From contig CAVVFE010000007.1 in NCBI GenBank assembly GCA_963747475.1, forward strand, positions 23,963-87,962: DNA of 64,000 nucleotides. The letters run 5' to 3'. The DNA is from an uncultured Bacteriovoracaceae bacterium. Lineage in GTDB: Bacteria; Bdellovibrionota; Bacteriovoracia; Bacteriovoracales; Bacteriovoracaceae. A program made the position numbers and the translations under genes. Below, in pieces: positions 33,393 through 45,673 of this stretch. Each line of letters opens with the position of its first letter. Positions within the stretch are counted from its first letter, which is position 1. Under the pieces are notes generated by a model that saw nothing but the letters and a program-made list of their open reading frames with translations, had not been told where the DNA came from and did not search any database.

Positions 33393-34184
33393 CTAAAGTT
33401 TGACCTTGCCCTTCTCTTCAAGCTTGTTGATAAGGTCAACAAAGTGAGAAGTCGGGAAGGCGCCTTTAACAGGAATGCCATTAATAAGAAATCCTGGCGT
33501 CCCTTGAAAGCCATACTTGGCGGCCTCGGCCTGGTCCTCTTTGATTCTTTGAGCGACCTCTTTTGAGTCAAGATCTTTCTCAAGCTTCTTCATGTCAGCG
33601 CCAACTTCTTTGGCGGTCGCCTTAAGAAAGGCCTCGCCCTTTTTAAGCTTTTGCTGATTTTCAAAAATTTTATCATGGAATTCGGCGGCCTTTTTTTCAC
33701 TTTGAAGCCTGATAGCTTCATAATACTTCGCGGCAGGCATGGCGTGCGGGTGAAAGCTAAGAGGAAGATGCTTATAAATAAACTGAATTTTACCGTCATA
33801 CTTTTTCAAAAGCTCCTGAACAGTTTGATAGCCACGGTTACAGTATGGACACTCAAAGTCGGAATACTCAACAAGAGTGAGAGGAGCTCCTTTTGTTCCT
33901 CTGATCATTTCATCTTCTCTAATTTCAGGCTTCAGAGGCTCATCAAAGTAGGTCTCCATTTGCTTGGCCTCTTCTTGCGCCTTCTTCTTCTCCATGTCGC
34001 TACGAGCGACCTTAACGGCCTCGTTTAAAGCGTTGATGAACTCGCTTGGGTTGGCCTTGATCGCTTCAGTAAGAATATCGGGGTTGTTTTTAAGCGTCTC
34101 TTTAAGTTGGCTTTCATTGACGGTGCAAGACAGGGCCAAAGAGCTCAAGGCCAGAAACGCGATTTTTTTAACGTAAGCTTTCAT
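33393..34184 (-). CDS. DsbA-family thiol:disulfide oxidoreductase (secreted)
   Basis: Intact ORF with a signal/lipoprotein-like N-terminus (LALSSLALSC), a CPYC active site (EYSDFECPYC) and ..GTPGFLINGIPV... Confidence 0.75.
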   Translation of the reverse strand: MKAYVKKIAFLALSSLALSCTVNESQLKETLKNNPDILTEAIKANPSEFINALNEAVKVARSDMEKKKAQEEAKQMETYFDEPLKPEIREDEMIRGTKGAPLTLVEYSDFECPYCNRGYQTVQELLKKYDGKIQFIYKHLPLSFHPHAMPAAKYYEAIRLQSEKKAAEFHDKIFENQQKLKKGEAFLKATAKEVGADMKKLEKDLDSKEVAQRIKEDQAEAAKYGFQGTPGFLINGIPVKGAFPTSHFVDLINKLEEKGKVKL

Positions 34185-35457: not shown

Positions 35458-36228
35458 TTAGAATAAAGGAAGCTCTTTTTGAACGCGTCCTCTGAAGAAC
35501 TCTCTTGTCCCTCGAGCAATCGCGTCCGCATAGGCGCGCAAAAATTTGCCCCTCCTAAGCTTCCAAATTTCCTTGTCGTTCGACATAAATCCGGCCTCAA
35601 TTAAAATTCCAGGTCTTTTGGACAATGCCAAAACATAAAAGAGCCCGGGCTTAATGCCTCTGTCGCGCATGCGGAATGGCACGGAGACTTTCTCCTGAAC
35701 CTTGGTGTGAACTAAACTTGCGAGTTTTCTTGAAGACGAGACCGTCTTTTGAATGACGAGGTCGATTAAAATTTGATTCACGACCTTTTCGGCGCCTTTA
35801 AGATATTCATTTTCAATATTTTCCACTTTCTTTACGGCGGCGTCTTCATGGTTGTCGAGATAATAAGTCTCAAATCCATGGGAAGATTCCTCGGTGGACG
35901 AGTTAAAGTGAATAGATATAAACAGGTCGGCCTTGACGGCCTCGGCCATTTCGGCCCTTTCATTCAGATCAACATGCCGATCGAAACTGCGGGTCAAATA
36001 AGTTGTGTAATAAGGGTCTAGTTTTTCTTTCACTTTCTTTGCCAAGCTCAAAGTCAGGTCTTTTTCATAGACCATCTGAGTGACGACCTTATCGCCTCTT
36101 TTGACCCGAACGCTCTTCTTTGCGCCAAGCTCGTCTCCTCCATGACCGGGATCGATGAGCACCACAAAGCTGAAGGCCTTTAGAGGCCCAAGAATCAGCA
36201 GGACAAATAAAAAATACTTTCTCATCAT
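35458..36228 (-). CDS. N-acetylmuramoyl-L-alanine amidase (Amidase_3 / AmiA-C type)
   Basis: Intact ORF with a signal peptide. Motifs VVLIDPGHGGDELGA, ISIHFNS and ILIEAGFMSN are present. Confidence 0.85.
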   Translation of the reverse strand: MMRKYFLFVLLILGPLKAFSFVVLIDPGHGGDELGAKKSVRVKRGDKVVTQMVYEKDLTLSLAKKVKEKLDPYYTTYLTRSFDRHVDLNERAEMAEAVKADLFISIHFNSSTEESSHGFETYYLDNHEDAAVKKVENIENEYLKGAEKVVNQILIDLVIQKTVSSSRKLASLVHTKVQEKVSVPFRMRDRGIKPGLFYVLALSKRPGILIEAGFMSNDKEIWKLRRGKFLRAYADAIARGTREFFRGRVQKELPLF

Positions 36229-36242
36229 ATGAAGCGAATTCT

Positions 36243-37406
36243 CTAATACAATCTCTCTAACTTAAAGCGGGGAAAATAATGCTTGAGAATTTGTTTATAG
36301 TTATGACCTCGCTTTGCCATTTCTAAGGCCCCGTATTGGCAAAGACCAACGCCGTGACCAAAACCTTTTCCCTCAAGAATGACCTCTCCCCCTTTAGCGA
36401 TCACAGAAAAAGAGTTGCTGCGGGTGTATTTACGGCCAAGGGTGGAGCGAATTCTTGATTTCTTTAAAACCACCAAGCGATCATCGTCATAGACCCTCAT
36501 TCGAGCGTCCGAAAAATTTAGCGGGCGCCACCTTAAAAGCGGCCACGCCTCTATCAAGCTTATCGCTCTGGTAATTAGAAAGAGCTTTGTCCACCGCGGA
36601 ATAAAAATTCTTCTTTGGCAGCACTGCCTTCCAATCTTTTGGGCCATGCTTATGGCAATAAGGGCAGTCCACGTTGGTGTAGCCCTCAACACTATGGCTC
36701 CACACTTGGTCTGGTCTTCTCGTTTTTCCGCCGCACTTAGAATGAAAGAAAATCGGAGAAATTTTTCCGTTGTTCAGAGAAAGGACCTCTCCCTCTGTCT
36801 CCCTTTGGGCGCGTGAAGTTTTCACAGTCACGTCAAAAAAGTCTCCATTCACTTGGTGTCGTTCTGAGTTCTCTAAATCGTAGTAGCCCTTCTTGCCCTG
36901 TCTTTCCTTGATTTTATAAAGAGCATAAGATCTGGCGGCCACAGCTTGGGCCTTCAAGGCCTCAAGAGGCCAGCGTCGGGCTCATTTCTTTTGAAAGGAC
37001 AGACCCTATATAAGTCTCAATTCCAACTTCATTGACAATATCGCAGCCATTTGCGGCGGGAGGCGCCACCAAAAGAAGAGAGCCTCGATATTTACCCGAG
37101 CCGACTCCTAAAAGTCCTGTCGAGGAGCTGATGCTTGCGAGCAACAAAGGCGCCATTAAAGCGCGAGTACTTCTTTAAAGGAAGGCAGTTAAAGTGAAGG
37201 CTATGCCTTCCCTTGTACTTCTTCTCTTTGCCAGAGCCTCCAATTCGTTTGGTCAAGTCGGTGCCAGTAATGGAAAGCTTCTTCTGTTTGGCCGAAATTA
37301 AGACCCTGATTTTAGGCTCTTGATAGTCTGAAGCGTATTTTCTCGCCGGGGAAGCTGCTTGAGCGACAAGCGTGAGGGCGAAAAAGGCCAATCCTAGTTT
37401 TAACAA
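36243..37406 (-). CDS. SpoIID/LytB-domain protein (frameshifted)
   Basis: Motifs KAQAVAARSYAL, FHSKCGGKT and GFGHGVGLCQYGALEMAKRG are present. The gene is split over ORFs 37092-37406, 36962-37156, 36487-36957 and 36243-36692. Confidence 0.8.
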
Positions 37407-38793: not shown

Positions 38794-40660
38794 CTATTTT
38801 CCATCAAGGCCACGCAAATGTTCATAAATAGCTTTTGCGTGGCGGACCTGAATCCCAAGAAGATCCGCAATCTCTTTAACATTCATTTTAGCAAGCTCGT
38901 CTTAGGACGTGGTAAGGCTTCTAAGGATTTCCTGCTTGGTCTTCTCGCCTATGCCATGAACATCATCAATCCATGATTTAAATACCCGCTTTTTCTCCGC
39001 TTTGTGATGAAGCTTACGGCTAAAGCGGTGCGCCTCGTCCCGCATTTGCACAATGATTCTAAAAAGCGAAGGACATTTGGAAAGAATATAGGGGTTTGAG
39101 CGGTTGGGAATGACCAACCTTTCCTCGGAGCGCTCGACCTTATTGCTTTTAAAGCCCGATTTCAAATCGCGAGATTTTGCGATGCCGGCCACAGGAACGT
39201 CGCAATCAAATTCGGCGAGGACTTTTCGACAGTATTCACCTGAGCAACGCCTCCGTCCACAATAAAAACATCAGGCCAAGGGCGGCGTTTGAGCCTCCTG
39301 GTAAAGACCTCTTTCATCATCGCAAAGTCGTTATTGCCTTCTGGGAGTTCTTCAAGATGGTAATATCGATACGACTTTTTGTCCGCCTTTCCGTCGTGAA
39401 AGACCACTTGGGAGGCGGTCGGAGATTTTCCCTGCCAAATGGCGATGTCATAGCATTCAATGACTCGAGGCCGCTCCTTCATGGAGAGCAAGTCCTTTCA
39501 ATTTATTAAGGCCGGTGAATTCGCTTTCTTGATTTTTTATTCTTATTCTTTGAGTTTCTTCGGCGTGATTTCTGGCGGCGTCCACCAGGCTCTTATACTT
39601 TCTGCCTCCGGCGGCGACTCTAAAGCGCGACCCTTCGCCCACGGTTTTCTCGAGCGCCTCTTCGAAGTTTTCCGTCTGTTTTTTGAGAGGTCTGCGACAA
39701 TCATTTCAGGAATGGGCTCGTCCGATTGTCCATAGTATTGGAGCATAAAGATAATAAGCTCTTCAGAAATTTCATCGAGAAGATCATCAATAGAGAAGTG
39801 AAAGGACTTATGACCCAAAAGGCTTCCCTGGCGAATCATATAAAGACTAACGTCGAGCTCCTTGTCTCCCTTATAGAAAGAGAAAACGTCCACGTTCTTC
39901 TCGTCTAGGAACTCCACTTTTTGGTTGAAGGAGTGCTCGAGAAAAGGCCTTAACTCCTCAAGGGCGTCGCGGATCATCGCCGCTCTCTCAAAGTTTTCTT
40001 CCTCAGCGGATTTAAGCATTTGCGCCTCCAAAATCTTCACGGCCTCTTTTGCCTGCCGGCCTCCCTTTCAAAAGCTTTAAGCGCGTTCTCTAGGTCCTCT
40101 GCGTATTCATGCTTGCTAATATGATCCACACAAGGCGCGCTACAATGGCCCATCTGGTAAAGGATGCAGGGAGTTTTCCTCGAGGCAAAGTCCCAATCAG
40201 AACAGTCTCTAAGATTAAACGCCTTAGCAATCACTCTCATGACTGAAGAAATGTTCGAGCCCGAAGGATAAGGCCCGTAAAGCTCAACGCCCGCTTTTCG
40301 CTTGGGCCTTCTCGCGTACTGAAGCTTGGGAAAAGCGTGCGCTTTGTCCACTTTCACATACGGATAAGATTTATCGTCCTTTAAGCGGATATTGTATTTG
40401 GGACGATTGTCCTTGATAAGATTATTTTCTAGAACATAAGACTCCGCCTCAGAATTGGTGAGGATAAAATCAAAGTCTCGAACTTTTGAAACAAGAATGC
40501 GCGTCTTGGCGGACTTTGCCGAACCATTGAAATAGCTCTGCACACGATTTTTGAGGCTTTTCGCCTTTCCCACATAAAGAATAGTGCCAGCGCCGTCCTT
40601 CATAAGATAGCAGCCAGGACTTCGAGGCAAGGCATTTGCCTTACTTAAGAGGTCGGACAT
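38794..40660 (-). CDS. uvrC: Excinuclease ABC subunit C UvrC (frameshifted)
   Basis: The GIY-YIG domain is marked by PGCYLMKDGAGTILYVGKAKSLKNRVQSYF, and the UVR domain by ..EENFERAAMIRDALEEL... The endonuclease and HhH C-terminus reads ..IDDVHGIGEKTKQEIL.. then shifted ..KEIADLLGIQVRHAKAIYEHL.. ending at the TAG at 38794-38796. Confidence 0.9.
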
Positions 40661-40758
40661 TTTTATCTCATCTGGCAGTCATTCTTTACGCATCCCTATT
40701 TATTCGCTAAAATAATTTAGTTTTAACCCGTCCTAATTTATAACCAAAAAGGAAATCT

Positions 40759-41172
40759 ATGTCCAAGTACGCGGCCGGAAAAGAAGTGCTCTCTTATTGC
40801 GGCAAATGTAAACTGACTTTGTCGCACACAATAGTCTCAATGAAGGACTCGGCCACTATTGGTAAAGTTGAATGCAGAACATGCAAAGCAACTCACGCCT
40901 ATAAAGACCCTTCATCTAAAACCAAAAAAGTAAAAAGAAAATCAAGCATACCTGGCGCGAAGTCCAAATCTATGTCAGTCAATGAGCTTTGGACTGAAGA
41001 ATTTGGCAAGGCCCAGGGAAAGCCGCTTTCTTATAGCATCAAAAACGAGTTTCACGTGGGAGACTTTATTGACCATAAGAAGTTTGGTCCAGGCATCGTT
41101 CAAGGCATTGTTGATGGAAAGATCGAAGTTCTCTTTCAGCACGAAATCAAAACACTGATCCATAACAAATAA
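40759..41172 (+). CDS. Hypothetical protein with N-terminal zinc ribbon and C-terminal SH3-like (GDxIxHxxFGxGxV) motif
   Basis: Intact 137-aa ORF with CGKCK...CRTCK and ..VGDFIDHKKFGPGIVQGI... Confidence 0.5.
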   Translation: MSKYAAGKEVLSYCGKCKLTLSHTIVSMKDSATIGKVECRTCKATHAYKDPSSKTKKVKRKSSIPGAKSKSMSVNELWTEEFGKAQGKPLSYSIKNEFHVGDFIDHKKFGPGIVQGIVDGKIEVLFQHEIKTLIHNK

Positions 41173-41205
41173 AAAAGGGAGCATTCTCGCTCCCTTTTCT
41201 TTTTA
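41171..41205. terminator. Bidirectional intrinsic terminator between convergent genes
   Basis: AAAAAA-GGGAGC-attctc-GCTCCC-TTTTCTTTTT lies at 41171-41205. Confidence 0.6.
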
Positions 41206-41227
41206 TTCTCAGTTTATCTTTTTAAAA

Positions 41228-43307
41228 TTAAAAGCCAAAGCCCCATCCAGCGCTCAAGCATAGTCCCATATTGCTTGGGCTATAAGGAGCATAACCATAG
41301 TTCATTCCATAGCCGCCTTGTCCATAGCCTTGATAGCCATTAGACCAAAGGTTTCGGGCCGAGTTTTGATAGGCCCCCTGCAGGCCTGCTTGCTGCAAGT
41401 AAGAGTCTTGCATATAGGCCTGGTTGTTTTGCGCATAACTTTGCTGGATATTGCCCCAGCTAGCTCCGCCGCCAGCGCCCCAGCCGCCAGATCCGTTCCA
41501 GTATGATCCTGCGCCATTGCCCCATGGACTCATGCCCATGCCGCCTGCGCCGCCGCCATAAGGGTTGCCGTACATACCGCCGTTCATTCCAATTCCTATT
41601 CCGCCGCCAAAACCGCCAGCTGGTCCAGGATACATTCCCATACCGCCTGGCATAGTTCCGCCCATTGCCCATGCCGCCGCCTGGGCAAGGAGCTTGAATA
41701 CACATTATTCCTCCATTGCCCATGCCGCCCATGCCTGGGTACATGCCGCCCATGCCTGGGCCATTTCCTGGCATCATAGTGCCAAGACCTAAATTGATTC
41801 CAAGACCAGGGTTCATGCCGCCCATGCCAGGGTACATTCCGCCCATGCCGCCCATTCCAGGGTACATGCTCCCGCCCATGCCGCCCATTCCAGGGTACAT
41901 GCCGCCCATGCCGCCCATACCGCCGCCCATGCCAGGGTACATTCCGCCCATGCCGCCCATACCAGGGTACATGCCGCCCATACCGCCGACACCAATACAT
42001 TCCGCCCATGCCGCCAACTCCGCCGTATGGATTATACATGCCGTAAGGACCGGCCATGCCGCCCATAAAGCCTGGGGTATAACCAGCCCCTAGCCATGGA
42101 TTGCCGAAGCCTCCCATGCCGTTGCCCATAAAGCCCATGCCGCCTGCGAAGCCGCCCAGCTGATAGCCATTACAGCCAGGGGTGTTCATATTGCCCCCAA
42201 ACTCGCGGTCTGGAAGCCCGTTGCCAGAGACGTAGTTTCTCTGAGCCTGCACATCATTATAGTATGATTGAATATAATTCGTTTGCATCAATTGACATTG
42301 CTCAAAGCCAGTCGCGGCAGCTCCTGCCCACGCTTGGTTTGCTCCAAGGTAAGCGTCAGCTCCCGCTTTTACTCCAAGATAGCCCATGACTGGTGGAAGA
42401 ACCGATCCGGCGATTTCTGCGATGCCGCTGAGAGTTCCATAAACTCCGCTTCTCTTTCCAGCGCTGGCGCAGTTTCCTGTTGTGCAGTGAAAGCTATCGC
42501 TTGTTTGAGAACGATAATATTTGCGTCGTCTCCAATGCAATCATTCATATGAAACAGTGTAGGCGCAGCTAAAAATAACGCCACCGACATTATAAGTTCT
42601 ATTGCCACTCGGGCCATTTCCGGTATTTACTCCGCCGCGAACAATAACACCACCGCCAACGGGGTTTCCGTGCTTATCAACACCGTATTTGATTCTACAT
42701 TTCTTTTTTACATTGCCCCAAATATTGAAGCAGCTGTCAGGAAGGTTGATTCTACCGCCGCCGCTTATAACAACGCTGCCATTGCCGTTCGCTCCAGTTG
42801 AGCCAGTAGCTGCCTGTTGAACCTGTTGTTCCATCACCTGGTCCAGATGACCGCCACTTGATGCCACCGCATATTGCGCATCTCTAAGAATACATTTTAC
42901 ATCCGTCTTCGCCGCAGATGGCCTTCCAGATGTCAAAGCTAACTTTCCCGGCATTAATCTCATAGCTTCCTCCGGTGGCATCTCAATTATGTCGTCGTCC
43001 GTCTCTGCAGTCGCCGCAATGCTCTTTCCAACCGCCCACGGAAAACAGCGAGTTCACCAGTGAAGGACATGCTTAATGCTGGCTAACAGTCATGTCGACG
43101 GCAACCTTCCAACAGACGTAACATGTTTATCTTAGTGGTCGGTTCCATTTTGCTGGCCTGTCATACTCAACGTTCCACTATCGATAGTCTCCGCCAAGGC
43201 AATTACCCAAGAGATAAGCGTGTTGTAGATGCCGCGAGCTAAGCATTTCCAGCGAAAAGCATGATAGTCAGACCTACTGACACTAATAATTGAATTCCCT
43301 TAACCAT
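41228..43307 (-). CDS. Secreted Gly/Met/Tyr/Pro-rich low-complexity repeat protein (multiple frame breaks)
   Basis: Signal peptide MVKGIQLLVSVGLTIMLFAGNA starts at 43307. Pieces lie in ORFs 42541-42981, 41596-42540 (first half), 41460-42017 ((GGMGGMYPGMG)n) and 41228-41665 (tail ending GWGFGF). Plus-strand ORFs exist only inside the repeat. Confidence 0.5.
41710..42000. repeat. Tandem about 33-bp (11-codon) repeat with CATGCC core
   Basis: Units of the form catgccgcccat(g/a/t)cc(a/t)gggtacat(g/t)ccgcc recur head-to-tail. The minus strand reads GGMGGMYPGMG, and the plus strand reads PMPPMPGYMPP. Confidence 0.85.
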
Positions 43308-43523
43308 AATTACTCACCTATGAGTTAAATTTCATTTCGCTTTTAATAAGCGCCAAAAATCGGCACTCTAAACAAAACGCTTTGATAGGGACAAATTTCC
43401 CTTCAATATCTTGTCGGAAGATTGCCTAAAATACTTAACGGTAATAAGTGTTTGAATTTGTTAGAGAATGATGAGTAATTTTGGGAGGTTGTCCCCTAGG
43501 CGCTCCGGCCCAGGGGCCGGTCT

Positions 43524-43988
43524 TTAGCCCATGCTTTGGACTTGATGAGCCTTTGGATTGAACTTTCGAATGCTAGTAACAAGGAACTCGATAAGCTCGT
43601 CATCAGAAGCGTAGACCTCTTCTACTAGATCACATGTAAGAACAAAGTCCTTAACTCTCTGAGCGATATTGTGAAGAGACTCGACCATGTAAAGTCCTCC
43701 GATATTCTCGCCTTGGAAGCTTTTGATGATTTCTTTTCTTGCGTGGTTGAACATTTCAGTCTCAGTGATGTCTTCAGTCACTTCGTCTAGACCAAACTTC
43801 TCTTCCACTTCTTCGATGGCCTGCTCTCTAATGTCCTCATCAGTGGAAAAGCTCACACCCAGCTCTGTCGCGAGAGCGTCGATGACGTCGGCCCTTTTAT
43901 CAGCAGCATACTCAATCAAATCATCTTGCTTTAAGTGATTGATAGTATGAGTCGCCAAGGCAACTAGCGTGTTAAAGTCTGTACGCAT
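43524..43988 (-). CDS. Hypothetical acidic cytoplasmic protein (possibly DUF507-like)
   Basis: Intact 154-aa ORF. The family guess rests on overall composition and length only. Confidence 0.4.
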   Translation of the reverse strand: MRTDFNTLVALATHTINHLKQDDLIEYAADKRADVIDALATELGVSFSTDEDIREQAIEEVEEKFGLDEVTEDITETEMFNHARKEIIKSFQGENIGGLYMVESLHNIAQRVKDFVLTCDLVEEVYASDDELIEFLVTSIRKFNPKAHQVQSMG

Positions 43989-44030
43989 AATACGGTGTCC
44001 TTTTTAGATTAAATTCCCCATCAGTCTACA

Positions 44031-45673
44031 TCATTCAAAAGCGATACTACAAGAATATTTGGGGGTTAATTGGCGAAAACTTAGCTTTTCCCGAATCTTT
44101 GACGCATCTTCGATATAACTTTCAACACAACGCTTCTTTCGCCAAAAGACAAAGAGAAACAATGCGTAAAGAGCAAAAACCAGCGAGAAAGAGACGCCGA
44201 GATAAAGGCATTTTGCGACAAAGTGCAGCTTATAAAATAGCGGGGCGTAAGGCTTTAGGCCCACAAAATTCCCGCAGACGATGAGGGCGGCCAAGGAATA
44301 ATCTTGGCAAGTCTCAAACTTAAAAAGTCATTAAGACCGATGCTTAAGGTCTTTTTTCATAATCCACGTCTGGGCCGAAGAGTTGAGAAGCATGGAAAGC
44401 GTCGTGCCGAAGGCCAGGGTCTCAAAGCCATAAATGGGAGTGAGAGCGACGCAAAAAACAATATTAAAAGCCACAGAAAAGACCGAACAATAAACAGGAA
44501 CCCTTTGGCGGTCGATCGTGTAGAAGGCCGGCACAAAGATCTTATAAATACCATAAAACGGAAGCCCAATCGCGTACCAAACAAGGGCCTTTGAGGTCAT
44601 AAGTGTGGAGAAGGAATCAAACCTTCCTCTTTCAAAAATAAGGTGAACGATTTCCTTTAGAAAAAAGAACAGCGCAAATCATCGCGGGCAAAATCACCAC
44701 CCATGAGGAAAGATAGCTGCTCTTTAAAAGCTCCTTGGCCCTGCTCCTTCTCTCCCTTCCTTCCACGCGTTTGAAAAATGAACCAGATTGGCGTTTCCAA
44801 TGGACACGCTCAAGAATGCCCACCGGCAATTGAAAAAGGCGAAAGGCATAGCTAAGCCAGGAGACGGCTCCCACGACCGTGCCTGTGGCAAGAATAGTGT
44901 TCACAATGAGATTTGCCTGCGTCGCGGCAAAGCCGATAAGTCCAGGGCCCAAAAGCTTAATGACTTTCTTTGTTTTTTTATGAAGCCCGTTTTTCAAACG
45001 GGTTGGAGAAAACGTGATGCTTAATAATAAGCGGCACTTGAATAAATGCCTGAACAAGACCGCCGATAAATACGCCCGCGCCAAGAGCGTAGATGGCGGG
45101 ATACCCCAAGCTCGTCATCACACTTGGAAGCCCAAGCATGCACGCAATCATGGAGACGTTAAAAAAGGCCGGAGCCAAGCGCCGGCACAAAGAAGACTTT
45201 GAGCGAATTCAATGCGCCCATAAACAAGCGCGGCCAAAGAAACAAAAGTCAGAAAGGGCGCCATGATGCGAGTGAGCCCCACAGTGATGGCGAACTTTTC
45301 AGGATCAGATTTAAACTTAGGGGCAAAGACAGAGATGATTTCAGGAGCAAAAAAAATAGTGAGCCCTGAGATGAGTCCCAGTCGCGATGATGAGCACGAT
45401 GAACAAAGACCATAGAAGCCTTCTGGCGCTCTCTTTATCTTCCCCCTTGGCCTCGATAAAGGTCGGCACAAAGGCCGCCGAGAAGGCGCCTTCAGCAAAG
45501 AGATCTCTCAAAAGATTGGGAATTCGAAAGGCGACATAGAAAGCGTCTGTCATCCCGCTTGCGCCGAACATAAAGGCGAGAACTTGTTCCCTTACCAGCC
45601 CCAAAATTCGACTCATAAATGTCGCGGTCGCCATTTTCAGAGATGAAAGAATAACTGCTTTTGAAGTCGCCAA
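44031..45673 (-). CDS. murJ: Lipid II flippase MurJ/MviN (heavily frameshifted)
   Basis: The N-terminus [53 protein letters not shown] is diagnostic. The rest is spread over at least 6 ORF fragments down to 44031. Confidence 0.8.

What the first reader, a model, noticed from the sequence alone, without database searches (positions are those of the whole stretch)
41228..43307. Secreted Gly/Met/Tyr/Pro low-complexity protein built on a 33-bp tandem repeat, (GGMGGMYPGMG)n
On the minus strand a signal-peptide-like start (MVKGIQLLVSVGLTIMLFAGNA, ATG at 43307) leads, through several frame breaks, into four regions. The first is a Cys-containing Gly/Asn-rich region (..GANGNGSVVISGGGRINLPDSCFNIWGNVKKKCRIKYGVDKHGNPVGGGVIVRGGVNTGNG..). 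The second is a Gly/Ala/Tyr region (..CTTGNCASAGKRSGVYGTLSGIAEIAG..GFAGGMGFMGNGMGGFGNPWLGAGYTPGFMGGMAGPYGMYNPYGG). The third is roughly 8-9 near-identical 11-residue units GGMGGMYPGMG. The fourth is a Gly/Gln/Asn/Tyr tail ending ..SAGWGFGF-stop. I know of no characterised bacterial family with this composition. The closest analogies I can name are Gly/Met-rich animal elastomers (abductin-type FGGMGGG repeats) and the Met-rich Cu(I)-binding loops of CopA/PcoA/CueO-type proteins. The Q/N/Y/G tail and terminal Phe also recall secreted amyloid or outer-membrane-targeted proteins. A separate oddity is that the CATG-centred repeat encodes a Met-rich peptide on both strands (PMPPMPGYMPP on the plus strand). 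The gene has its own upstream spacer of about 215 bp and shares a bidirectional terminator with the convergent gene.
Basis: partly seen in the sequence, partly recalled or inferred. Interest (0 to 1): 0.8.

Follow-up and report, generated by a model that had tools for sequence, protein, structure and literature searches.

The report
Secreted glycine-rich protein of predatory bacteria
This is a real gene, badly garbled by sequence errors, for an exported, almost charge-free glycine/methionine-rich repeat protein; it belongs to an uncharacterised family found only in Bdellovibrio-like predatory bacteria and sits behind a conserved flagellar/attack-phase (sigma-28) type promoter.

Summary
The minus-strand gene at 41228-43307 is real. 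Intact orthologues of 570-690 aa lie at the same locus (murJ / acidic 150-aa gene / X / zinc-ribbon gene / uvrC) in 15 other Bacteriovoracaceae, Halobacteriovoraceae and Bdellovibrionota contigs. A profile search finds 159 protein clusters.

The frame breaks are not special to this gene. uvrC, murJ and most neighbours are broken at about 3 events per kb, so they are most likely sequence errors.

The repeat is 5 contiguous units plus 1-2 outliers, of 30, 33 or 42 bp. It is not 8-9 units of 33 bp.

No Pfam, NCBIfam, PDB-sequence or Foldseek match exists. The family architecture is:
- a signal peptide;
- a variable Cys-containing head;
- a conserved CxxC plus helical core;
- an uncharged Gly-rich region whose repeat unit differs by lineage (GMGGMYPGMG, GGFNGG, GGWGGN, GNQFGGQFG);
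- a Q/N/Y-rich helix;
- a C-terminus ending ...SAGWGFGF.

Methionine is not conserved (0-20% of the region, median 4.5%), which argues against copper binding as the family function.

A sigma-28-type promoter (TTAAG-N16-CCGACA) lies upstream in 14 of 16 loci, matching the published Bdellovibrio attack-phase consensus.

Best reading: an attack-phase, Sec-exported, self-associating structural or adhesive envelope protein. The function is inferred, not shown.

The parts
43412..43438 (-). Sigma-28 (FliA)-type promoter candidate, TTAAG-N16-CCGACA, about 105 nt upstream of the ATG
   Evidence: It is the only exact match to TWAAG-N16-CCGAYA in the 64-kb window (0.10 expected). The same motif lies at the equivalent position in 14 of 16 family loci. 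The published B. bacteriovorus attack-phase consensus is TTAAG-N16-CCGATA (PMC3627812).
43365..43404 (-). Conserved non-coding block between the promoter and the ribosome-binding site: palindrome GGGAAATTTGTCCC followed by CTATCAAAGCGTTTTGTTTAGAG
   Evidence: The block is conserved in sequence in the window and in L001, L002, L003, L004, L006, L007, L009 and L010. No conserved RNA structure was found and no Rfam match. Its function is unknown; it may be a regulator binding site.
43313..43319 (-). Ribosome-binding site AGGTGAG
   Evidence: Read directly from the sequence. AGGTG is conserved in the upstream alignment.
43242..43307 (-). Signal peptide MVKGIQLLVSVGLTIMLFAGNA (Sec / signal peptidase I type, no lipobox), followed by an in-frame TAG at 43239-43241
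   Evidence: The M[VFI]KGIQ... start is conserved in orthologues.
42800..43241 (-). N-terminal Cys-containing head domain, the most heavily broken part (at least 5 frame switches, plus in-frame TAG/TAA/TGA codons)
   Evidence: tblastn and frameshift-aware alignment to L001, L002 and L007, and the minimum-switch count. The equivalent residues 20-130 of the intact relative P0008 are predicted as an alpha/beta domain with pLDDT up to 93.
42541..42799 (-). Gly/Asn/Thr linker and second Cys module (..GSVVISGGGRINLPDSC..KKKCRIKYG..FSCAYTVSYE)
   Evidence: It reads in a single frame (ORF 42541-42981). An equivalent module is present in L003, L008 and P0011.
42019..42540 (-). Family-defining core: CIGDDANIIV, CxxC, the hydrophobic Ala/Gly-rich segment LSGIAEIAGSVLPPVMGYLGV, AWAGAAATGFEQCQLMQTNY, LPDR, CNGYQL and GNGMGGFGNPW..GYTPGFMGGM..NPYGG; frameshifts at about 42540 and 42500
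   Evidence: Alignments A1, A2 and A6. The Cys residues and the GFE.C and CNGY motifs are invariant. A profile of this region finds 159 clusters. The region is predicted as a long helix with pLDDT 70-85.
41531..42018 (-). Uncharged Gly/Met/Tyr/Pro low-complexity region, with frameshifts at about 41991-42018 and about 41660; contains CIQAPCPGG
   Evidence: Composition is G 45%, M 19%, P 9%, Y 7% and D/E/K/R 0. The equivalent region of P0008 is predicted disordered, with pLDDT below 40.
41814..42015 (-). Imperfect tandem array of GMGGMYPGMG-type units (30, 33 or 42 bp)
   Evidence: Tandem Repeats Finder scores up to 205. Unit spacing is 33, 30, 42 and 30 nt, and copies are 66-98% identical.
41228..41530 (-). 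Conserved tail: SPWGNGAGSYWNGSGGW, a Q/N/Y-rich predicted helix (NIQQSYAQNNQAYMQDSYLQQAGLQGAYQNSARNLW), and the C-terminal motif YGYAPYSPSNMGLCLSAGWGFGF followed by a TAA stop
   Evidence: ORF 41228-41665 and alignment to orthologues. In the family, an aromatic residue lies within the last 3 positions in 88 of 106 representatives. The helix has pLDDT 69-77 in P0008.
41171..41200 (.). Bidirectional intrinsic terminator shared with the convergent zinc-ribbon gene (40759-41172, plus strand)
41716..42093 (+). Antisense Pro/Met-rich ORF (125 aa), judged non-coding
   Evidence: It is confined to the repeat and arises from the CATG palindrome in GGC-ATG runs. No conserved antisense ORF cluster was found across the 12 syntenic loci.

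Best explanation
Window 41228-43307 (minus strand) encodes the local orthologue of an uncharacterised protein family restricted to Bdellovibrionota. The gene is most likely intact in the organism, and the frame breaks and stop codons are errors of this sequence record.

Proposed mechanism, step by step:
- The protein is made from a FliA (sigma-28) type promoter. In Bdellovibrio-like predators that implies expression in the motile attack phase (inferred).
- It is exported by the Sec pathway and its signal peptide is cleaved (inferred).
- Outside the cytoplasm it consists of a small disulfide-containing head, a conserved CxxC plus long helical core that probably oligomerises, about 200 residues of uncharged disordered Gly-rich chain, a Q/N/Y-rich helix, and a short C-terminal strand with alternating hydrophobic residues that ends in an aromatic residue.
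- The low-complexity part works through composition, not exact sequence. Hydrophobic or aromatic 'stickers' (Met/Tyr here; Phe, Trp, Asn/Gln in other lineages) are spaced by Gly. This would make the chains self-associate into a flexible, cohesive, elastic or adhesive layer at the predator's envelope or surface (inferred).
- The C-terminal motif is the likely anchoring or targeting element (inferred).
- The repeat array grows and shrinks by in-frame slippage.

Shown here: the gene, the family, the architecture, the synteny and the conserved promoter motif. Inferred only: export, attack-phase expression, self-association, location and role.
For: - Homology and intact orthologues. There are 159 clusters at E<=1e-3 and 115 at E<=1e-10 in 1.84 billion representatives.
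- Synteny: murJ / acidic 150-aa gene / X / zinc-ribbon gene / uvrC in all 12 long-form loci and in the distant short-form loci.
- Breaks are not gene-specific. Frameshift-aware alignments give murJ 10 events in 1.6 kb and uvrC 5 in 1.9 kb, with other neighbours 0-12.7 per kb; the neighbours together give 45 events over about 15.2 kb, roughly 3 per kb (my sum over). The alignment-free minimum is 3.9 switches per kb in the target, against 3.2 (uvrC), 3.8 (murJ) and 0.8-4.2 elsewhere. Another long-read contig, L016, shows the same fragmentation.
- Signal peptides are present in nearly all members. Five Cys residues are conserved.
- Low-complexity region across 106 representatives: D/E/K/R 1.6% in the last 250 residues against 18.6% elsewhere, and Gly 31%. 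Repeat units are lineage-specific. The close relatives L004 and L005 differ in the length and number of units in the GGWGG repeat region.
- AlphaFold2 on the intact relative P0008 with a 61-sequence alignment: confident head, long core helix (pLDDT 70-85), disordered residues 349-530, tail helix (pLDDT 69-77).
- Promoter: one exact match in the window at the right place. The relaxed motif is found in 14 of 16 loci, against a chance of 0.0025 per zone. The B. bacteriovorus attack-phase consensus TTAAG-N16-CCGATA was found in 92 of 140 attack-phase promoters (PMC3627812).
- Working analogue for Gly-rich disordered adhesives that phase-separate and gel: tick cement glycine-rich protein (PMC11794139).
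Against: - No transcript, protein, localisation or phenotype data exist for any member. All database names are 'hypothetical protein'.
- The N-terminal 508 nt is broken more densely (9.8 switches per kb) than the window average, so decay of this particular copy is not excluded.
- The promoter assignment rests on a motif and on a consensus measured in a different family (Bdellovibrionaceae). 2 of the 16 loci lack the motif.
- The 16 loci are related, so the binomial figure overstates independence.
- The C-terminal 34 residues and the low-complexity region have low model confidence. No beta-barrel or other anchor fold is predicted.
- Only 53% of members end exactly on an aromatic residue.
- Self-association is inferred from composition alone. 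Unlike tick cement protein, the region has no Arg for cation-pi contacts.
Confidence: 0.5

Rival explanations
1. The window copy is a genuine decaying pseudogene, disabled by nonsense and frameshift mutations, rather than an intact gene misread by sequencing.
For: At least 8 frame switches are needed. In-frame TAG, TAA and TGA codons occur within a homologous reading frame. The N-terminal 508 nt carries 9.8 switches per kb, about three times the window average. The breaks are not linked to homopolymers, so they are not a simple platform signature.
Against: Essential or housekeeping neighbours are broken at the same overall rate: murJ 3.8 per kb and uvrC 3.2 per kb, with an in-frame stop in uvrC. 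A free-living predator cannot have lost murJ. The C-terminal 1.57 kb of the target has only 2.5 switches per kb and keeps near-perfect family motifs.
Confidence: 0.12
2. It is a periplasmic Met-rich metal (Cu(I)/Ag(I)) binding or buffering protein, in which the GGMGGMYPGMG repeats act like the Met-rich loops of CopA/PcoA/CueO.
For: Met makes up 19% of the 214-residue low-complexity region and the protein is exported. Close relatives (P0008, L003, P0009-P0011) are also Met-rich.
Against: Met content in the equivalent region ranges 0-20% with a median of 4.5% across 106 representatives. Orthologues at the same locus use Phe/Asn, Trp or Gln/Phe units instead. The repeat contains no His or Asp. 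No multicopper-oxidase, CusF or CopC domain is detected. No cop/cus/pco genes lie in the conserved neighbourhood.
Confidence: 0.05
3. It is an outer-membrane-targeted or functional-amyloid protein. The C-terminal alternating motif ending in Phe would be a BAM beta-signal or the nucleus of a cross-beta fibre formed by the Q/N/Y tail, and the Gly-rich region would be only a linker.
For: The C-terminus ...LSAGWGFGF alternates hydrophobic and small residues and ends in Phe. The last residue is F, Y or W in 56 of 106 members, and an aromatic residue lies within the last 3 positions in 88 of 106. The tail has a yeast-prion-like Q/N/Y/G composition.
Against: No beta-barrel is predicted and the last 34 residues have low confidence. 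The Q/N-rich part is predicted helical. There are no curli or Fap repeat domains, and no csgG- or fapF-like secretion genes nearby. One or two strands are too few for a membrane anchor unless the protein oligomerises.
Confidence: 0.2
4. It is a bitopic inner-membrane protein. The hydrophobic segment LSGIAEIAGSVLPPVMGYLGV would span the membrane, so the low-complexity region and tail would be cytoplasmic, for example a polar condensate scaffold.
For: The segment is about 20 residues, conserved, and predicted helical. Its hydropathy is borderline: median Kyte-Doolittle 19-residue score 1.28, reaching 1.87 in some members.
Against: Only 9% of members reach the usual 1.6 threshold. The segment carries conserved Glu and Pro-Pro. 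Flanking K+R is symmetric at 1.9 on each side, so there is no positive-inside signal. Invariant Cys residues lie on both sides of the segment, as expected for disulfides in an exported protein.
Confidence: 0.1
5. The plus-strand Pro/Met-rich ORF (41716-42093) is the real coding sequence.
For: An open 125-aa frame with a TTG start exists.
Against: It is confined to the repeat and is the mirror image of GGC-ATG codon runs. The minus-strand frame carries a signal peptide, a conserved core and a tail shared by 159 clusters. No conserved antisense ORF is seen in the syntenic loci.
Confidence: 0.01

Closest known systems
Abductin (molluscan hinge-ligament elastomer, FGGMGGGNAG decapeptide repeats) and the 'glycine loop' proteins (loricrin, Gly/Tyr keratin-associated proteins); named from my own knowledge
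   Same: A secreted, uncharged Gly-rich chain. Short tandem units of about 10 residues carry Met and aromatic residues as the only bulky side chains. The region is predicted disordered.
   Different: There is no sequence homology, and this protein is bacterial. Met is not conserved among orthologues. The low-complexity region is embedded between a folded Cys-containing head and helical core on one side and a conserved Q/N/Y tail on the other. Elasticity has not been tested.
Tick cement glycine-rich protein (PMC11794139) and other bioadhesive low-complexity proteins such as mussel foot protein 3 (the latter from my own knowledge)
   Same: A secreted disordered Gly-rich protein with periodically placed aromatic residues, made by an organism that must attach firmly to another organism. 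The Trp/Asn-rich variant in L010 (GWNNGWNGGWNN) resembles mussel foot protein 3 in composition.
   Different: Tick glycine-rich protein relies on Arg-aromatic cation-pi contacts. This family's region has about 1.6% charged residues, so any cohesion would have to be pi-pi, hydrophobic or hydrogen-bond based. No adhesion or phase-separation data exist.
FG-nucleoporin cohesive domains and Q/N/Y prion-like domains (Sup35 type); named from my own knowledge
   Same: Both are depleted of charge, have Gly/Asn/Gln spacers with Phe/Tyr stickers, and evolve fast in sequence while keeping composition. L011 carries GNQFGGQFG units.
   Different: Those domains are eukaryotic and cytoplasmic or nuclear. This protein is exported, has conserved cysteines, and is not related by descent.
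Met-rich Cu(I) sites of CopA/PcoA/CueO and CusF (from my own knowledge)
   Same: A periplasmic location is inferred, and this lineage has many Met residues.
   Different: There is no multicopper-oxidase or CusF fold, no His or Asp in the repeat, and no copper-resistance neighbours. Met is dispensable across the family.
Curli CsgA / Fap functional amyloids and outer-membrane-protein C-terminal beta-signals (from my own knowledge)
   Same: The protein is Sec-exported, has a Q/N/G/Y-rich segment, and ends in an alternating hydrophobic motif with a terminal aromatic residue.
   Different: There is no curlin or Fap repeat, no dedicated secretion operon, no predicted barrel, and the Q/N segment is predicted helical.

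Membership tests
The uncharacterised Bdellovibrionota family defined here (core profile A3/A6) | Conserved core: CxxC ... hydrophobic Ala/Gly segment ... AWAGAA.GFE.C ... CNGY ... GNG.GGFGN.W..AGYSPGF | tested here: met
   The window core (42019-42498) is 57-71% identical to P0001-P0003 and 42-71% identical to the cores of L001-L011. All invariant Cys, Gly, Phe and Glu positions are present.
The uncharacterised Bdellovibrionota family defined here (core profile A3/A6) | N-terminal signal peptide, uncharged Gly-rich region, Q/N/Y tail, C-terminal aromatic motif | tested here: met
   The tail aligns end to end with L001 and L003.
The uncharacterised Bdellovibrionota family defined here (core profile A3/A6) | Position between the acidic 150-aa gene (downstream of murJ) and the convergent zinc-ribbon gene and uvrC | tested here: met
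The uncharacterised Bdellovibrionota family defined here (core profile A3/A6) | One uninterrupted reading frame | tested here: not met
   At least 8 frame switches are needed. This is attributed to record-wide errors, because murJ and uvrC are equally broken.
Met-rich copper-binding proteins (CopA/PcoA/CueO, CusF, CopC) | Multicopper-oxidase, CusF or CopC domain | tested here: not met
   No Pfam or NCBIfam hit in the window pieces or in any of 61 family members.
Met-rich copper-binding proteins (CopA/PcoA/CueO, CusF, CopC) | Met motifs conserved among orthologues, usually with His or Asp | tested here: not met
   Met is 0-20% (median 4.5%) of the region. There is no His or Asp in the window repeat.
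Met-rich copper-binding proteins (CopA/PcoA/CueO, CusF, CopC) | Actual Cu(I)/Ag(I) binding | not testable with these tools
   This needs recombinant protein.
Curli / Fap functional amyloid | Curlin or Fap repeat domain and a dedicated secretion operon (csgEFG, fapF) | tested here: not met
   No Pfam hits. The neighbours are murJ, the acidic protein, the zinc-ribbon protein and uvrC.
Outer-membrane beta-barrel proteins (BAM substrates) | C-terminal beta-signal ending in an aromatic residue | tested here: inconclusive
   The window protein ends ...SAGWGFGF. In the family, 56 of 106 end in F, Y or W, and 88 of 106 have an aromatic residue in the last 3 positions.
Outer-membrane beta-barrel proteins (BAM substrates) | A beta-barrel domain | tested here: not met
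   The AlphaFold2 model of P0008 has no barrel. The C-terminal half is disordered apart from one helix, and there is no structural match in the PDB.
FliA (sigma-28) regulon / Bdellovibrio attack-phase genes | Promoter matching TTAAG-N16-CCGATA (PMC3627812) | tested here: met
   The window has TTAAG-N16-CCGACA at 43412-43438, the only match in 64 kb. The motif is conserved in 14 of 16 loci.
FliA (sigma-28) regulon / Bdellovibrio attack-phase genes | FliA-dependent, attack-phase-specific transcript | not testable with these tools
   No expression data are available for any member.
Abductin-type elastomers | Homology to abductin, or the FGGMGGGNAG repeat | tested here: not met
   The profile and sequence searches returned only Bdellovibrionota-type hypothetical proteins. 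The repeat unit here is GMGGMYPGMG. The resemblance is in composition only.

The most novel reading that the evidence does not exclude
Bdellovibrio-like predators carry a phylum-wide, sigma-28-driven, Sec-exported 'sticker-and-spacer' protein. Its charge-free Gly/aromatic/Met region would form a condensate, gel or elastomer outside the cytoplasm. Possible roles are a prey-attachment glue, a seal at the entry pore, or a flexible matrix of the envelope or flagellar sheath. This would be a bacterial, extracytoplasmic counterpart of FG-nucleoporin gels, tick cement or abductin, with a material-forming region that is re-invented by repeat turnover in each lineage while the head, core and tail stay fixed.
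Probability: 0.2. Interest if true: 0.8.

Novelty: new variant of a known kind. Interest (0 to 1): 0.55.

Why it matters
How Bdellovibrio-like predators stick to, enter and reseal prey is still poorly understood at the molecular level, and so is how their envelope tolerates the deformation of squeezing through a small pore.

This gene would be a concrete, testable candidate for a material-like component of that process, for four reasons:
- It is conserved across the phylum.
- It keeps the same place next to murJ.
- It carries the attack-phase type of promoter.
- It encodes an exported, charge-free Gly-rich chain whose composition, rather than its sequence, is conserved.

It would also extend sticker-and-spacer low-complexity proteins, known mainly from eukaryotic cytoplasm and animal secretions, to the bacterial cell exterior.

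There is also a practical point. The repeats break short-read assemblies, and noisy long-read assemblies shred the gene. That helps explain why the family has stayed unannotated.

Tried and rejected
Searches that found nothing:
- Pfam on the window fragments, on 8 intact orthologues and on 61 family members; NCBIfam on 5 members.
- PDB sequence profile search.
- Foldseek of the AlphaFold2 model against the PDB: best E-value 0.34, so no meaningful match.
- Megablast of 40700-44000 against plasmids.
- Rfam on 40600-44200: only sub-threshold hits on the terminator hairpin.
- Literature searches for glycine-rich, low-complexity or prion-like proteins in Bdellovibrio or Halobacteriovorax: nothing on this family.

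Ideas tested and dropped:
- A conserved RNA structure in the 5' leader: none (3 invariant pairs, -0.28 kcal/mol).
- A transmembrane reading of the core hydrophobic segment: not favoured.
- Homopolymer-linked indels as a platform signature: not seen.
- An initial sigma-28 guess at GCCGAT nearer the ATG (43363-43388) was replaced by the better-conserved TTAAG-N16-CCGACA site.

Tool limitation:
- The word-indexed homologue search performed poorly on this family. It returned 3, 4 and 10 hits, mostly fragments. The exhaustive HMMER search was needed to see the family.
Full report
**What is in the sequence.**
- On the minus strand an ATG at 43307, preceded by AGGTGAG, opens MVKGIQLLVSVGLTIMLFAGNA.
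- The spacer to the upstream gene is 216 nt.
- A bidirectional terminator hairpin lies at 41171-41200, between this gene and the convergent zinc-ribbon gene.
- The repeat is real but less regular than described. Tandem Repeats Finder reports periods of 9, 21, 30, 42 and 63 over 41806-42015.
- The MYPGMG-containing units are spaced 33, 30, 42 and 30 nt, with one more unit 93 nt away and a degenerate one at about 41996. That is five contiguous units of 10-14 residues plus one or two outliers, with consensus GMGGMYPGMG.
- The plus-strand Pro/Met ORF (41716-42093) is confined to the array. It follows from CATG being a palindrome within GGC-ATG codon runs, and no antisense ORF is conserved in related loci.

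**The gene is real and has intact relatives.**
- A search with the reconstructed non-repetitive part found three hypothetical proteins from Bacteriovoracaceae metagenome-assembled genomes, 45-62% identical. tblastn showed homology along the whole window gene.
- A scan of species-representative genomes with the two most conserved peptides gave 11 loci. All are Bacteriovoracaceae, Halobacteriovoraceae, Oligoflexia or Bdellovibrionota assemblies, plus one contig binned as Flavobacteriaceae that has the same neighbours.
- Nine of these loci carry an uninterrupted ORF of 573-686 aa. Two are cut by the contig end.
- Gene order is conserved in all twelve loci: murJ-like gene, acidic gene of about 150 aa, this gene, a convergent zinc-ribbon gene, then uvrC.
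- An exhaustive HMMER profile search of 1.84 billion representatives found 159 clusters at E<=1e-3 and 115 at E<=1e-10.
- Short-form members (about 400 aa, lacking the large head) sit at the same murJ/uvrC locus in more distant lineages.
- All source names are 'hypothetical protein'.

**The frame breaks.**
- Frameshift-aware alignment of intact orthologues to the window shows the neighbours are broken too. murJ has 10 frameshifts in 1.6 kb, uvrC has 4 frameshifts plus an in-frame stop in 1.9 kb, and others range 0-12.7 per kb. Most events are one-base insertions.
- An alignment-free count of the minimum frame switches needed for a stop-free path gives 3.9 per kb for the target, 3.2 for uvrC, 3.8 for murJ and 0.8-4.2 elsewhere.
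- A free-living bacterium cannot lack murJ. The breaks are therefore best explained as errors of this record, not biology.
- They are not homopolymer-linked.
- Another long-read, pilon-polished contig (L016) shows the same shredding of murJ, uvrC and this gene.
- One caveat remains. The N-terminal 508 nt needs 5 switches (9.8 per kb) and contains TAG, TAA and TGA codons inside a homologous frame. Local decay of this copy cannot be fully excluded.

**Anatomy of the family.**
- Signal peptide of the signal-peptidase-I type.
- Variable Cys-containing head, absent in the short forms.
- Invariant CxxC.
- Conserved Ala/Gly-rich hydrophobic segment (LSGIAEvAGAvlPPvmGYLGV), followed by AWAGAAATGFEQC, LPDR, CNGYQL and GNGmGGFGNPW..AGYSPGFMGGM.
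- Low-complexity region of 160-300 residues.
- Conserved VPWGNGAGSYWNGSGGW.
- Q/N/Y-rich segment.
- C-terminus of the type YGYAPYSPSNmG.SlSaGfGFGF.

Numbers across 106 representatives of at least 380 aa:
- The last 250 residues contain 1.6% D/E/K/R, against 18.6% in the rest, and 31% Gly.
- The last residue is F, Y or W in 56, and an aromatic residue lies in the last three positions in 88.

Repeat units differ by lineage:
- GMGGMYPGMG in the window.
- GGGMGGMYPGF in P0008.
- GGFPGGGM in L008.
- GGWGGS/N in L004 and L005, which differ from each other in the length and number of units.
- GGFNGG in L006.
- WNNGWNGG in L010.
- GNQFGGQFG in L011.

Met makes up 0-20% (median 4.5%) of the region.

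**Structure.**
- AlphaFold2 was run on the closest intact relative, P0008 (602 aa), with a 61-sequence alignment.
- It gives a confident small alpha/beta head (pLDDT up to 93) and a long helix over the core (residues 216-289, pLDDT 70-85).
- Residues 349-530 are disordered (pLDDT below 40).
- A helix covers the Q/N-rich segment (residues 529-566, pLDDT 69-77), and the last 34 residues have low confidence.
- Foldseek finds nothing in the PDB (best E-value 0.34). Sequence profiles find nothing in the PDB, Pfam or NCBIfam.
- The core hydrophobic segment is not a typical membrane span. Its median Kyte-Doolittle 19-residue score is 1.28, only 9% of members reach 1.6, it carries conserved Glu and Pro-Pro, and its charged flanks are symmetric.

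**Regulation.**
- About 105 nt upstream of the ATG the window has TTAAG-N16-CCGACA (43412-43438). It is the only exact match to TWAAG-N16-CCGAYA in 64 kb, where 0.10 is expected.
- The same motif, or CTAAAG/TAAAGTTT-N-CCGA(T/A)A, lies at the equivalent place in 14 of 16 family loci, including the distant short-form loci. The chance of a hit per zone is 0.0025. The loci are related, so the probability is only indicative, but the proteins have diverged to about 30% identity.
- Karunker et al. (PMC3627812) mapped 140 attack-phase promoters in B. bacteriovorus. They found TTAAG-N16-CCGATA, the FliA (sigma-28) site, in 92 of them.
- I therefore infer FliA-dependent, attack-phase expression. This has not been measured for any member.
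- Between this site and the ribosome-binding site lies a conserved block: the palindrome GGGAAATTTTTCC followed by CTCAAAG.GTTTTGTTTAA. In several lineages a TATAAT box follows. The block has no conserved RNA structure and no Rfam match.

**Interpretation.**
- Shown: the gene, the family, the architecture, the synteny and the promoter motif.
- Inferred: the protein is exported. This rests on the signal peptide, the invariant cysteines on both sides of the hydrophobic segment, and the C-terminal aromatic motif.
- Inferred: it is made in the motile attack phase.
- Inferred: it acts through a compositionally conserved, charge-free Gly-rich chain whose bulky residues (Met/Tyr here) serve as cohesive contacts.
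- Such chains are known, outside bacteria, to give elastomers (abductin, glycine loops), selective gels (FG nucleoporins) and adhesives that phase-separate and age into solids (tick cement protein, PMC11794139).
- For a predator that must attach to, enter and reseal prey while deforming its own envelope, a flexible cohesive or adhesive surface or periplasmic layer is the reading I consider most likely.
- The helical core is the probable oligomerisation module and the C-terminal motif the probable anchor.

**Alternatives.**
- Copper binding is unlikely as a family function, because Met is dispensable and no copper-related domain or neighbour is present.
- An outer-membrane or amyloid role for the tail remains possible, but no barrel or dedicated secretion system supports it.
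- A bitopic topology with a cytoplasmic tail is disfavoured but not excluded.

**Verdict.**
It is wrong to give weight to methionine, to the frame breaks or to the antisense ORF.
- The family is new to the curated databases and is of moderate to good interest for predator cell biology. Its function remains inferred.

Noticed in passing
window 31500-52700 (for example uvrC 38803-40678, murJ-like 44096-45673): Most genes longer than about 1 kb in this part of the window are broken by frameshifts and occasional in-frame stops, roughly 3 per kb and mostly one-base insertions. The breaks are not linked to homopolymers. Some genes are untouched (the acidic 154-aa gene, the zinc-ribbon gene, 35461-36243, 33396-34181). 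The record as a whole looks error-ridden.
   Followed up: yes
window 43524-43988 (minus strand); L001-L011, L012, L015, L017: The acidic, signal-peptide-less gene of 148-155 aa immediately upstream is much more conserved than the target (for example the shared FNHARKEIIKS block, even in lineages where the target core is only about 30-40% identical). It always lies directly downstream of murJ; the glycine-rich gene follows it directly or, in L012, L016 and L017, after one to three interposed genes. It has no Pfam or NCBIfam family. Its function is unknown, but it is clearly a core gene of this phylum.
   Followed up: partly
window 43365-43404 (minus strand) and the equivalent positions in L001-L010: A conserved non-coding block lies between the sigma-28-type site and the ribosome-binding site: the palindrome GGGAAATTTTTCC plus CTCAAAG.GTTTTGTTTAA. 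In L004, L006, L008, L009 and L010 a perfect TATAAT follows it (TACAAT in L003). It could be a regulator site with a second, sigma-70-type promoter. No RNA structure or Rfam family fits it.
   Followed up: partly
L002, L007, L015, L017 (contig ends): Four of the 16 family loci end inside this gene, at or just after the start of the Gly-rich region. Many database entries for the family are 'partial'. The repeats evidently break short-read assemblies, which helps explain why the family is poorly represented and unannotated.
   Followed up: partly
L016 (ENA ERZ28548088, contig name ending in _pilon): This independent long-read assembly shows the same fragmentation of murJ, uvrC and the family gene into several short gene calls as the window does.
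   Followed up: partly
L010 (CAXPDR010000038.1, labelled Flavobacteriaceae bacterium): The contig carries the full Bdellovibrionota-type neighbourhood (murJ / acidic gene / family gene / zinc-ribbon gene / uvrC), so it is probably mis-binned.
   Followed up: no
L004 9161-11188 compared with L005 9167-11164: Two nearly identical orthologues differ by 10 residues, through different lengths and numbers of units in the GGWGG repeat region. This is direct evidence of in-frame repeat expansion or contraction between close strains.
   Followed up: partly
window 40759-41172 (plus strand): The convergent 137-aa gene has an N-terminal CxxC...CxxC zinc ribbon and weak, sub-threshold C-terminal matches to DUF3553 and the CarD/TRCF RNA-polymerase-interacting domain. 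It is conserved next to uvrC in 10 of the 12 long-form loci (the other two contigs end before it), and a gene of similar size and orientation sits there in L016.
   Followed up: no
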